From Escherichia coli (lineage in GTDB: Bacteria; Pseudomonadota; Gammaproteobacteria; Enterobacterales; Enterobacteriaceae): a DNA stretch of 64,000 nucleotides. Location: NCBI RefSeq assembly GCF_046105845.1, contig NZ_CP151004.1; one strand, written 5' to 3'. Below are positions 40,101-43,100 of the stretch, in pieces. The position numbers were made by a program. The number at the start of each line of letters is the position of its first letter. Position 1 is the first letter of the stretch.

Positions 40101-43100
40101 GTCTTTAACGGATTTAATTACGTGAGTCAAAGTCTTTGTACTGTTTATTATGCCAGTTTGTTGTTTTTGAATAGTTTCCAGTTGACTCTTTAGCTGTGCT
40201 TGTTGTTTTTCGAGTAGCACAATTTTATTGTTATGTTCTTCTTGTTGTTTCAATAAACTACTTTCTGGCTTGCCTTCTTCAATGTAGTCACATCCCGTTA
40301 ATGCGCAGAGAACTGAAACAGTGACAGCACTGAAAAAAATCTTCTTCAAGTTCATGTAAAAATCCTTATTGCCTCCGACCAGCGATCTATGCCGGTAGAG
40401 TTGTCCATTGTATTATTAGTGATCTATGTTGCTTTACATTAATGACAGTGATGTGTGTCGATTAAATATTGTTTTAAACATTCATCATAAAAATGTATCA
40501 TTCGTTTCAAAAGATGTCTGCGTTTGTATGAATATGTTATTTTTCGTGGATTCTAATGATGATTATTAATAAATGTCAAATATGAAAGAAACCATATCTG
40601 GAAAAAATCTTACTGATAATTGATTGTATGAATATGATGATTAAAATTTCACAATTAAATCCGAAAAAAAGAGACGTAAATGCTTGTTAATTAACAAATG
40701 ATATCTTCTATATATTTTTATTATTTATAGGTGGCTATTTCGGTAAAAATGCATTTTCAGAATATCAACCAGCGGTAAATCGAAGTAAAGGGAGTGAATT
40801 GTTTGGTAATTAGGCGAGTAGACAGGAGAGTCCCCGCATTGACCAGCTAAGGCAAGCCAGATGCGGGTTGATACGATCGAACCAGTCGTCTGAGGGGCTT
40901 AAAACGCAGTCTTAGAGAATCCAGTCATCTCCTGCAGGCCCATTTCGCGGCCCAGCGCGGTCATTGGGTGCACAACCACCAGTCCGCGAACACTTTTCTT
41001 CAGCTTGCCCATATCAGCCTGCTCTTTTTTGGTAATCGCGCGCTGGAACGGCATCTTCATCAGCTTCTGTGCTTCCTTACTGAGTTTCTGGCTGTGAACT
41101 TCGCGCAGGCGAGCAATTTCTGCTTCCAGAGTGGCTTTCTCTTTTTCCAGTTCGGCATATTTGTCTGCGGCTTCAACCAGCGACAGATCGGCCTGCTGGT
41201 GACGGATGGCGTCCAGACGATCGCTGAGACGTTTGATTTCGTTTTTTTCGACTTCTTTCATGTGATGGCTTCTGATAAAGATAAATTTATAGTCCCTAGT
41301 ATGCGCGACCAGGTGCTTTGTTCACAACTGATGACATTGCAATAGTTCTATAACGTAAACATTAACATGCTTAAAAACTACGCAATTTATTGATTAATTA
41401 AGAAATTTAAAGAAAAAAGATAGTTAATAGAAACGGATGATTATTGAGGATTGAGCACGTTTTCCTTAATGTCATTTATACCGGGATCTAAACTAAAATT
41501 GGCGGCCGCGCATTCCCGGCGCGGGGTAATACGGAGATATCATCATGGGCAAATTAGGTGAAAACGTTCCGCTTCTTATCGATAAAGCTGTAGATTTCAT
41601 GGCATCGAGCCAGGCGTTCCGGGAGTATCTGAAAAAACTACCTCCCCGTAACGCGATTCCGTCCGGAATACCTGATGAAAGCGTGCCGTTATATCTACAA
41701 CGTCTGGAGTATTATCGTCGGCTTTATCGGCCGAAGCAGGTAGAGGGGCAGTAAGCAGACGTTGCTTACTTTTGGAAGGCTTTTTTTAAGCTGATTTTGG
41801 AAATCAGCTCTGTCAGTGAAAGGACCATTGTTGATCGCACAGCCTGTTGGTAACGCTGAATTTGCATTGCATACAAACTGGAGTCTGCAGGTTCAAACTG
41901 TGGCGGCGGTGGTAACGCCGCCACGCAATGCAGTTCACCAAAGGGTCCAAGTATTTCGTCGTCGGTAAAAGCGTACTCGTTGCCGTCGTGATTTAGCTCT
42001 TCACGCAATGCCATCAGCAGTTCCGCATCTTCGTATTCCTGGCGGTTAATGACGCCCAACCCGTAAATGAGTTTTAAACGCACAGAAAGATCGCCCAGCG
42101 GACCGTCGCCGTCGAGTAACGGTTCTACAGCATACTTCACCGCGTAATCGTCTTTGCGGAATACCTGAAGCACCAGAAGATTTACCGCCTCGGTCAAAAG
42201 CTCGACGGCGGTGATCAGAAAGCTTCGCACGGTTTTGCCAGCATTCAGACGCTCAAGCACACGGTTTTCAAAGGCCTGGGTTTGTTCCATTGTTGCCTGC
42301 ATATCTGACAATCTGTTATTCGGGCGCAGGGTATCCTGCGCCTGGTCCACCATTATTGCATTGCTTTATAAGCGGTTACCGCCTCGGATACAACCTCGCT
42401 GTTGGCATCAAGACCGGAAATCTGTGCCAGCGCGGCTTGTGGGCCTTTGTCGGCAATCAGCGCTGCCAGTTCCTGAGCCTGCGGATCATCTTCACTGCGG
42501 AAGTGCATTGCAGCGGCAATACCTTCAATCAGGTTTTTATGTGGCAGACCATATTCCAGCGTACCGAGCAGTGGCTTGATCAGACGGTCGCCAGCACTCA
42601 GTTTACGCAGCGGCTGACGGCCTACGCGCTCTACATCATCTTTCAGATACGGGTTCTCAAAACGACCAAGGATTTTCTGGATGTACGCCGCATGTTTGTC
42701 CGCGTCAAAACCGTAACGCTTGATCAGTACCGCGCCGCTTTCTTCCATCGCACCTTTTACCACCGCGCGGATTTTCTCGTCGAGAATCGCATCACGAATG
42801 GTCTGATGACCCGCCAGTTTTCCGAGGTACGCGGTTATAGCATGACCCGTATTCAGGGTGAAGAGTTTACGTTCGACAAATGCCATCAGGTTGTCGGTTA
42901 ACTCCATGCCTGGGATGTTCGGCAGCGCGCCTTTGAACTGGGTTTTATCAACAATCCATTCGCTGAATGTTTCTACCGTCACTTCCAGCGGATCGTTGGT
43001 TGCAGAAGCCGAAGGCGGCACGATGCGGTCAACGGCGGAATCAACAAAGCCAACGTGTTCTTCTACCCACGCTTTGGCATCTTCCGGCAGGGCGTTCATC

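What the first reader, a model, noticed from the sequence alone, without database searches (positions are those of the whole stretch)
40356..40898. Long AT-rich leader upstream of the adhesin operon
Directly seen: about 540 bp of strongly AT-rich non-coding sequence between yibL and the lipoprotein gene, in contrast to the flanking core genes. Inference: a horizontally acquired promoter region, a typical target for H-NS-type silencing.
Basis: inference. Interest (0 to 1): 0.3.

Follow-up and report, generated by a model that had tools for sequence, protein, structure and literature searches.

The report
Known H-NS-silenced adhesin operon promoter
This AT-rich gap is the ordinary control region of the EhaG/UpaG adhesin operon of E. 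coli/Shigella, which the literature already describes as silenced by the DNA-coating protein H-NS, and it is an old resident of this chromosomal site rather than a recent import.

Summary
The 543-bp non-coding gap at 40356-40898 is real. It is AT-rich overall (33% GC against 49% for the window), but not evenly: 40400-40760 is 25% GC, while the 100 bp next to yibL are 55% GC. It lies between yibL and a SadB-type lipoprotein gene, which is followed by an EhaG/UpaG-type trimeric autotransporter.

Only about 188 nt is likely leader. The gap holds:
- a yibL 3' hairpin;
- a conserved upstream motif, ATTCTGAAAAT;
- a near-consensus sigma-70 promoter, TTGACA-18-TAGAAT (40579-40550, minus strand);
- an unstructured AT-rich 5' UTR.

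The promoter and the upstream motif survive in 11 alleles that are otherwise only 41-50% identical, from Escherichia species and Pseudocitrobacter.

Papers I could read cite Totsika 2012 for derepression of this operon in hns mutants. The O157 spacer is 96% identical to this one, with an identical promoter.

"Horizontally acquired" is not supported as stated. The yibL-spacer-sadB-adhesin order also occurs in Citrobacter and Enterobacter, and in Salmonella according to the literature. K-12 has a deletion that starts exactly at the yibL stop codon.

Verdict: already known, low interest. The only loose end is the conserved motif about 180 bp upstream of the promoter, whose function is unknown.

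The parts
40899..41261 (-). yibL (YibL family ribosome-associated protein), the upstream core gene. Its stop codon is the exact left edge of the block missing in K-12.
   Evidence: ORF. NCBIfam NF008244, E = 8e-57. The K-12 alignment ends at 40898.
40833..40867 (-). GC-rich stem-loop (CCCGCAU...AUGCGGG) 32 nt after the yibL stop. It is the likely yibL 3' end or a weak terminator; no U-run follows it.
   Evidence: Fold. Ten other alleles carry a hairpin of different sequence, starting 12-47 nt from the first base of the yibL stop codon. The terminator scan did not flag it.
40753..40763 (-). Conserved upstream motif ('U-block'), ATTCTGAAAAT with core TC[TC]GAAA, 182 bp upstream of the -35 hexamer. 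Function unknown; it is a candidate regulator site.
   Evidence: Present in all 11 diverged alleles, 170-184 bp upstream of the -35 (179-184 bp in nine, 170-172 bp in two). A similar GGCTATAATCCGAA is present in Citrobacter youngae. Invariant among 8 EhaG-type sequences.
40550..40579 (-). Predicted sigma-70 promoter of the sadB-ehaG operon: -35 TTGACA (40579-40574), 18-bp spacer, -10 TAGAAT (40555-40550). Predicted start is about 40543.
   Evidence: 11 of 12 consensus matches. TTGAC[AT]-N17/18-TA..AT is present in all 11 alleles, at -193 to -232 from the ATG, with about a 1% chance per allele in shuffles. Both hexamers and the spacer are identical to the window in the O157 allele (L003). The only change in the hexamers is a -35 change in L026, which also has a spacer change and whose lipoprotein gene is a pseudogene.
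40356..40543 (-). Predicted 5' UTR of about 188 nt, AT-rich. Shine-Dalgarno AAGGA lies at 40367-40363, with GGAGG at 40376-40372. No significant secondary structure.
   Evidence: Read from the sequence. RNA fold z-score -0.46. No Rfam hit at E <= 1. Poorly conserved between alleles apart from short patches.
40458..40467 (+). TCGATTAAAT, one mismatch from the H-NS high-affinity motif TCGWTWAATT, inside the predicted UTR.
   Evidence: It is the only match in the spacer, and matches are not enriched over chance window-wide (22 found, 21 expected), so it is weak evidence by itself.
39672..40355 (-). SadB-type (DUF3251) inner-membrane lipoprotein gene, first gene of the operon; 37.7% GC.
   Evidence: PDB 4C47 (deposited as 'inner membrane lipoprotein'; I take it from memory to be Salmonella SadB), E = 2.4e-67. 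Annotated as DUF3251 or SadB/YajI family in E. coli records. Function from PMC3953254.
34202..39628 (-). EhaG/UpaG-type trimeric autotransporter adhesin (1808 aa), 43 bp downstream of the lipoprotein gene.
   Evidence: ORF. The same-allele locus L001 is annotated 'trimeric autotransporter adhesin EhaG', although its adhesin gene matches the window's at only about 66-96% DNA identity depending on the segment. NCBIfam trimeric autotransporter hits.
34145..40897 (.). Block absent from K-12-type genomes: the adhesin gene, the lipoprotein gene and the whole 543-bp spacer. The right edge lies in REP elements.
   Evidence: blastn against K-12. 1261 of 5426 complete E. coli genomes carry the K-12-type empty junction.

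Best explanation
The spacer is the cis-regulatory region of the two-gene sadB-ehaG (SadBA-type) adhesin operon. Reading along the minus strand it contains:
1. a yibL 3' stem-loop;
2. about 250 bp of upstream DNA that becomes very AT-rich and carries a conserved motif, ATTCTGAAAAT;
3. a near-consensus sigma-70 promoter, TTGACA-18-TAGAAT;
4. an unstructured AT-rich 5' UTR of about 188 nt ending in a Shine-Dalgarno sequence.

The 68-80% AT tract from about -205 to +144 flanks and covers the promoter. It is the expected binding platform for H-NS, and probably StpA. H-NS would polymerise or bridge across the promoter and keep an intrinsically strong promoter off under laboratory conditions. Expression then needs removal or antagonism of H-NS.

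What is shown here: the anatomy, the composition, and the conservation of the promoter and the motif.
What comes from the literature: derepression of the operon in hns mutants.
What is inferred: the exact start site, direct H-NS binding at these coordinates in this strain, and any role for the upstream motif.
For: Gene order and identities.

Composition.

Promoter: 11 of 12 consensus matches. It is conserved in 11 alleles that are otherwise 41-50% identical, at about 1% chance per allele. A TTGACC-18-TATCAT site sits at the corresponding place in Citrobacter.

Spacer length (486-566 bp) and GC (30-35%) are conserved across alleles even though the sequence is not.

Literature:
- H-NS represses UpaG (PMC5012682).
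- 'hns deletion derepresses upaG' (PMC12525524).
- sadBA is not expressed in culture and its native conditions are unknown (PMC3953254).

The window's spacer is the same allele as that of O157:H7, 96% identical with an identical promoter.

IS1 insertions in this spacer in two genomes may fit the known IS1 preference for AT-rich DNA (preference from memory).
Against: There are no binding or expression data for this sequence. The primary paper (Totsika 2012) could not be read, so I do not know whether direct H-NS binding or a start site was mapped.

The H-NS high-affinity motif occurs once, with one mismatch, and is not enriched.

A-tract phasing, a proxy for curvature, is absent over the whole region and only marginal upstream of the promoter (p about 0.02, one of three tests).

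AT-rich DNA gives many spurious promoter-like matches: 7 found against 5.9 expected in shuffles. The promoter call therefore rests on conservation, not on the scan.
Confidence: 0.8

Rival explanations
1. The region is a recently acquired genomic island with a foreign promoter. On this view the AT-richness marks foreign origin and the block was inserted next to yibL.
For: The block 34145-40897 is absent from K-12 and from 1261 of 5426 genomes, with a sharp edge at the yibL stop. The spacer (33% GC) and the lipoprotein gene (37.7% GC) are AT-rich. Alleles are extremely diverged within E. coli: lipoprotein 62-70% amino-acid identity and a nearly unalignable spacer.
Against: The same gene order next to yibL is found in E. 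albertii, E. fergusonii, two Pseudocitrobacter species, Citrobacter youngae and Enterobacter wuhouensis, and in Salmonella and Shigella according to PMC3953254, which calls the K-12 state a deletion. The block holds no ORF of 100 aa or more beyond the two operon genes and ORFs nested in the adhesin gene; a tRNA scan and a search for flanking direct repeats were not run. The adhesin gene is 50% GC. The promoter and upstream motif are shared by all alleles, which argues for common descent of the regulatory layout. Allelic replacement by homologous recombination fits better than island insertion.
Confidence: 0.12
2. The AT-richness is a passive by-product of relaxed non-coding DNA with no special role for nucleoid proteins. 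On this view the operon is controlled only by a dedicated regulator, or by promoter strength.
For: The neighbouring yibL-yibT spacer is also AT-rich (36% GC). No enrichment of the H-NS motif. No clear curvature signal.
Against: 25% GC over 360 bp is matched in this 64 kb only inside the waa cluster. GC of 30-35% is kept in all alleles despite saturating sequence divergence. Published derepression in hns mutants, as cited in PMC5012682 and PMC12525524.
Confidence: 0.08
3. The spacer encodes something of its own (a small RNA, a riboswitch-like leader, a small protein, or a phase-variation switch), and that is what explains its length.
For: The spacer length (486-566 bp) is conserved across alleles. 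The predicted UTR is long (about 188 nt). The conserved upstream motif is unexplained. UpaG-type alleles carry an inverted repeat, AATCATTCATAA...AATGATT, in the UTR.
Against: No Rfam match at E <= 1. The UTR fold is no better than shuffles (z = -0.46). The only ORF of 30 aa or more (40426-40569, plus strand) lies in sequence that is not conserved between alleles. No second promoter is conserved in position around the upstream motif on either strand. No repeat tract lies in the promoter spacer, and the GATC sites are not conserved even within the allele.
Confidence: 0.07

Closest known systems
ehaG (EHEC O157:H7) and upaG (UPEC CFT073) upstream regions, repressed by H-NS (Totsika et al. 2012, Appl Environ Microbiol 78:2179, as cited in PMC5012682 and PMC12525524)
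   Same: Same chromosomal position (mtl-yibL | sadB-like gene | adhesin gene | lldP). The window's spacer is the EhaG-type allele: 96.1-96.5% identical to O157:H7, with an identical promoter.
   Different: The window carries about 3-4% private substitutions. The best match among 5426 complete E. coli genomes is 97.1%, and its lipoprotein is 100% identical to a cluster named from Shigella flexneri. The UpaG-type spacer shares only the promoter, the upstream motif and the overall layout.
sadBA operon of Salmonella enterica (Grin et al. 2014, PMC3953254)
   Same: The lipoprotein matches PDB 4C47 with E = 2.4e-67. It is followed after 43 bp (44 bp in Salmonella) by a trimeric autotransporter, between the mtl and lld operons. 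It is silent in culture and its native inducing conditions are unknown.
   Different: No Salmonella upstream DNA was retrieved here, so conservation of the promoter and motif in Salmonella is untested.
Classic H-NS-silenced AT-rich promoters with binding both upstream and downstream of the start site (proU, bgl, hlyE, virF, LEE1); comparison from general knowledge
   Same: A strong core promoter embedded in an extended AT-rich tract that runs into the transcribed region. Silent in the laboratory and derepressed without H-NS.
   Different: No anti-silencer (of the SlyA, LeuO, Ler or VirB type) is known for this operon. Nucleation sites have not been mapped.

Membership tests
H-NS (xenogeneic-silencer) target region | AT content well above the genome average over at least 100-200 bp spanning the promoter | tested here: met
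   68-80% AT from -205 to +144 of the predicted start. 25% GC over 40400-40760, against 49% for the window.
H-NS (xenogeneic-silencer) target region | Derepression of the downstream genes in an hns mutant | not testable with these tools
   Reported for ehaG and upaG by Totsika 2012, according to PMC5012682 and PMC12525524. The primary paper is not held.
H-NS (xenogeneic-silencer) target region | H-NS occupancy in vivo or in vitro (ChIP, footprint, gel shift) | not testable with these tools
   No accessible dataset was found. Searches for STM3691 or sadA with H-NS gave nothing relevant.
H-NS (xenogeneic-silencer) target region | High-affinity nucleation motif (TCGWTWAATT) and/or intrinsic curvature | tested here: inconclusive
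   One site with one mismatch at 40458-40467, with no enrichment. AA/TT phasing is marginal and only upstream of the promoter.
Horizontally acquired genomic island | Presence/absence polymorphism with sharp boundaries | tested here: met
   Absent from K-12 and 1261 of 5426 genomes. Edges lie at the yibL stop codon and in REP elements.
Horizontally acquired genomic island | Mobility signatures (integrase or transposase, tRNA or attachment site, flanking direct repeats) | tested here: inconclusive
   No ORF of 100 aa or more lies in 34145-40897 apart from the lipoprotein and adhesin genes and ORFs nested inside the adhesin gene. IS1 copies occur only as secondary insertions in single strains. 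I did not run a tRNA scan or a search for flanking direct repeats.
Horizontally acquired genomic island | Patchy distribution that breaks gene order between related genera | tested here: not met
   The order yibL-spacer-sadB-adhesin is found in five Escherichia lineages, Pseudocitrobacter, Citrobacter and Enterobacter. Salmonella and Shigella are added by PMC3953254.
SadBA / EhaG-UpaG operon | SadB-type lipoprotein gene directly upstream of a trimeric autotransporter, between the mtl and lld operons | tested here: met
   The gap between the two genes is 43 bp.
Sigma-70 promoter | -35 and -10 hexamers with a 16-18 bp spacer, at a conserved position | tested here: met
   TTGACA-18-TAGAAT, present in all 11 alleles.
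Sigma-70 promoter | Experimentally mapped transcription start | not testable with these tools
   The predicted +1 at about 40543 is an inference from the position of the -10 hexamer.
Known structured RNA (riboswitch, leader or small RNA in Rfam) | Match to a covariance model, or a fold more stable than shuffles | tested here: not met
   No Rfam hit at E <= 1. Fold z-scores are -0.46 for the UTR and -0.96 for the yibL 3' region.

The most novel reading that the evidence does not exclude
The invariant TC[TC]GAAA motif (ATTCTGAAAAT at 40763-40753) is kept 170-184 bp upstream of the -35 in 11 alleles whose surrounding sequence has diverged to near-random identity. The two distance classes differ by about one helical turn. 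The motif could be the binding site of an undescribed regulator or anti-silencer that relieves H-NS repression of the sadBA/ehaG/upaG operon. That would give a handle on the inducing signal for this adhesin, which PMC3953254 describes as unknown.
Probability: 0.3. Interest if true: 0.4.

Novelty: already known. Interest (0 to 1): 0.15.

Why it matters
EhaG/UpaG/SadA adhesins are discussed as vaccine candidates and biofilm factors, yet they are silent in culture. Knowing where the promoter lies, and that its layout is conserved, is useful for reporter and derepression experiments.

The central claim, an AT-rich promoter region silenced by H-NS, has been in the literature since 2012. The region adds no new principle. 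The correction that matters is evolutionary: this is an old, syntenic locus with deep allelic divergence and lineage-specific deletion, not a recent island.

Tried and rejected
- Rfam scan of 39000-42500 at E <= 1: nothing.
- RNA folding of the predicted UTR and of the yibL 3' region: not better than shuffles.
- H-NS motif search: no enrichment.
- A-tract periodicity as a proxy for curvature: marginal at best.
- Search for a second promoter at a conserved position around the upstream motif, both strands: none. AT-rich DNA simply yields many scattered weak matches.
- By-eye comparison of the motif with recalled consensus sites (RcsB/RcsAB box, marbox, sigma-54 -24/-12, CRP, FNR, IHF): no convincing fit, so none is claimed.
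- Small ORFs: only a 47-aa plus-strand ORF, in sequence not conserved between alleles.
- Dam GATC sites as a phase switch: not conserved within the allele.
- Attempts to read Totsika 2012 and Valle 2008: not held.
- Literature searches for H-NS data on Salmonella sadA/STM3691, and a Shigella H-NS RNA-seq paper: nothing relevant.
- The genome-contig scan returned only 10 loci and no Salmonella, so the Salmonella upstream region was not compared.
- Within-allele variation has too little power to test constraint: 1 variable site observed in the 23 core positions, against 2.6 expected.

Full report
**What is there**

The window around the finding reads, on the minus strand: mtlA-mtlD-mtlR, yibT (plus strand), yibL (40899-41261), a 543-bp gap (40356-40898), a 227-aa lipoprotein gene (39672-40355), a 43-bp gap, an 1808-aa trimeric autotransporter gene (34202-39628), then lldP.

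- The lipoprotein matches PDB entry 4C47 with E = 2.4e-67. That entry is deposited as 'inner membrane lipoprotein'; I identify it from memory as Salmonella SadB.
- YibL matches its NCBIfam equivalog with E = 8e-57.
- In E. coli genomes carrying the same spacer allele, the large gene at this position is annotated 'trimeric autotransporter adhesin EhaG'. The adhesin genes themselves are much more diverged than the spacer.

This is the known SadBA / EhaG-UpaG locus between the mtl and lld operons (PMC3953254).

**Checking the observation**

Its GC content is 33.3%, against 48.9% for the window. Only 6.7% of 543-bp windows are as AT-rich, and the rest of those lie in the waa LPS cluster. 200-bp windows at or below 27% GC occur in three places in waa and at 40401-40800.

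The composition is not uniform. 40400-40760 is 25% GC, whereas the 98 bp next to yibL (40801-40898) are 55% GC. Relative to the predicted start site, the 68-80% AT tract runs from about -205 to +144.

**Anatomy from comparative sequence**

Among 5426 complete E. coli genomes:
- 2268 carry this spacer at 90-97% identity (best 97.1%), including O157:H7 at 96.1-96.5%;
- 1261 carry the K-12-type empty junction;
- the remaining roughly 1,900 matched neither query in full; the two I examined carry a UpaG-type locus whose spacer is too diverged for blastn to find.

I collected 11 deeply diverged alleles of the yibL-sadB spacer: several E. coli lineages, Escherichia sp. E1V33, sequences whose lipoproteins are labelled E. 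fergusonii and E. albertii, and two Pseudocitrobacter species. Their pairwise identity to the window is 41-50%, close to random for AT-rich DNA. Four features are nevertheless kept in all of them:

1. A GC-rich hairpin, of different sequence in each allele, shortly after the yibL stop codon. In the window it is 40833-40867.
2. A motif TC[TC]GAAA. In the window it reads ATTCTGAAAAT at 40763-40753.
3. TTGAC[AT]-N17/18-TA..AT, with the -35 starting 193-232 bp upstream of the ATG. In the window it is TTGACA-18-TAGAAT at 40579-40550, an 11-of-12 match to consensus.
4. Overall length (486-566 bp) and GC (30-35%).

In dinucleotide-preserving shuffles, the promoter pattern turns up in about 1% of sequences and the motif in about 10%. 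Finding each in all 11 alleles, at a constrained position, is not chance, even though the patterns were defined after looking at the data. The motif lies 179-184 bp upstream of the -35 in nine alleles and 170-172 bp in two.

Citrobacter youngae has GGCTATAATCCGAA and a TTGACC-18-TATCAT site at the corresponding places. Enterobacter wuhouensis has a shorter spacer with weaker matches.

Among eight EhaG-type sequences, the -10 and the motif are invariant. The only -35 change is in a strain whose lipoprotein gene is already a pseudogene. That within-allele test has little power.

From the -10 position the start site is predicted at about 40543. This gives a 5' UTR of about 188 nt ending in AAGGA, 7 nt before the ATG.

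**What it is not**

- No Rfam family matches at E <= 1.
- The UTR and the yibL 3' region fold no better than shuffles (z = -0.46 and -0.96).
- The only ORF of 30 aa or more in the spacer is a 47-aa plus-strand ORF in non-conserved sequence.
- No second promoter is conserved in position near the upstream motif.
- I found no repeat tract or conserved GATC pattern that would suggest phase variation.

**How it most likely works**

A near-consensus sigma-70 promoter sits in the middle of a roughly 350-bp AT-rich tract that extends into the transcribed leader. This is the standard layout of H-NS-silenced promoters (general knowledge).

Papers I could read state that H-NS represses UpaG (PMC5012682) and that 'hns deletion derepresses upaG' (PMC12525524). 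Both cite Totsika et al. 2012. From memory, the abstract of that paper reports enhanced EhaG expression in EHEC and UpaG expression in UPEC in isogenic hns mutants. The paper itself is not held, so I cannot say whether direct binding or a start site was shown.

Grin et al. note that sadBA is not detectably expressed in culture and that its native conditions are unknown.

Because the window's spacer is the same allele as that of O157:H7, with an identical promoter, transferring the H-NS result to it is reasonable, though still an inference.

Sequence-level support for H-NS beyond AT content is weak. There is one near-match to TCGWTWAATT at 40458-40467 with no enrichment, and only marginal A-tract phasing.

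**Horizontal acquisition**

Relative to K-12, the block 34145-40897 is missing. It starts exactly after the yibL stop codon and ends in REP elements downstream of the adhesin gene. That looks island-like, but several points argue against an island:
- The same gene order next to yibL is found in every Escherichia lineage sampled, and in Pseudocitrobacter, Citrobacter and Enterobacter.
- The literature places it there in Salmonella and Shigella and treats K-12 as a deletion.
- No additional ORF of 100 aa or more that could encode a mobility function lies in the block. I did not run a tRNA scan or a direct-repeat search.
- The adhesin gene has genome-like GC.

What is unusual is the depth of allelic divergence within E. 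coli: the lipoprotein is 62-70% identical between strains, and the spacer is nearly unalignable. Divergence from K-12 is also 2.2-4.6% in the flanking core genes. This fits old alleles exchanged by homologous recombination through the flanks, not insertion of a mobile island.

**Comparison with known systems, and novelty**

The region is a member of the already described EhaG/UpaG/SadBA locus, and its H-NS control is published.

The one item I could not find described is the conserved motif about 180 bp upstream of the promoter. It may be a regulator or anti-silencer site, but I have no evidence for what binds it. By-eye comparisons with recalled consensus sites were unconvincing.

**Verdict**

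An ordinary, already explained regulatory region. Interest 0.15.

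Noticed in passing
L003 (E. coli O157:H7 YB14-1) 7985-8000, and L029; equivalent to window 40347-40349: In the O157:H7 allele, codon 3 of the sadB-like gene is TAG (ATG AAC TAG). 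NCBI's annotation therefore calls a protein that starts five codons further in. The adhesin's export helper may be poorly translated in O157:H7.
   Followed up: partly
L031 (strain STB20-1), equivalent to window 40398-40406; L002 (strain 102651), equivalent to window about 40748 and downstream: IS1 has hit this spacer at least twice. One insertion, with a 9-bp duplication, lies between the predicted promoter and sadB. The other is an IS1 with a deletion that removes the promoter, sadB and the adhesin N-terminus.
   Followed up: partly
L026 (strain THO-010), equivalent to window 40577: The only -35 change seen within the allele (TTGACA to TTTACA) is in a strain whose sadB-like gene is annotated as a pseudogene with an internal stop. 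This suggests the locus is decaying there.
   Followed up: no
window 41262-41544: The divergent yibL-yibT spacer is also AT-rich (36% GC; 30.5% over 41300-41499). It holds three one-mismatch matches to the H-NS motif TCGWTWAATT within 30 bp (41384-41413), more than the finding's own region has.
   Followed up: no
window 34100-34200: REP-type palindromic elements (for example GCCTGATGCGCTACGCTTATCAGGCCTAC) lie just downstream of the adhesin stop codon. The right edge of the K-12 deletion falls inside them, which suggests REP-associated deletion.
   Followed up: partly
window 30000-45800 compared with K-12 (L004): The core genes flanking the locus are unusually diverged from K-12 for E. coli/Shigella: mtlA 97.8%, mtlD-yibL 96.3%, lldP-lldD 95.4%. 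The window's lipoprotein is 100% identical in protein but only about 97% in DNA to the closest contigs found. Either the source lineage is distinct, or diversity is raised around this locus.
   Followed up: partly
window 36800-38300: The adhesin gene contains long, near-identical internal repeats (NTxNIAxNT-type stalk repeats). These generate many spurious overlapping ORFs on the opposite strand.
   Followed up: no
L005, L006, L008, L009, L010: about 60-40 nt upstream of the sadB ATG: UpaG-type alleles share an inverted repeat, AATCATTCATAA(A)nAATGATT, in the predicted 5' UTR. It is absent from the window's EhaG-type allele and may be an allele-specific operator or RNA hairpin.
   Followed up: no
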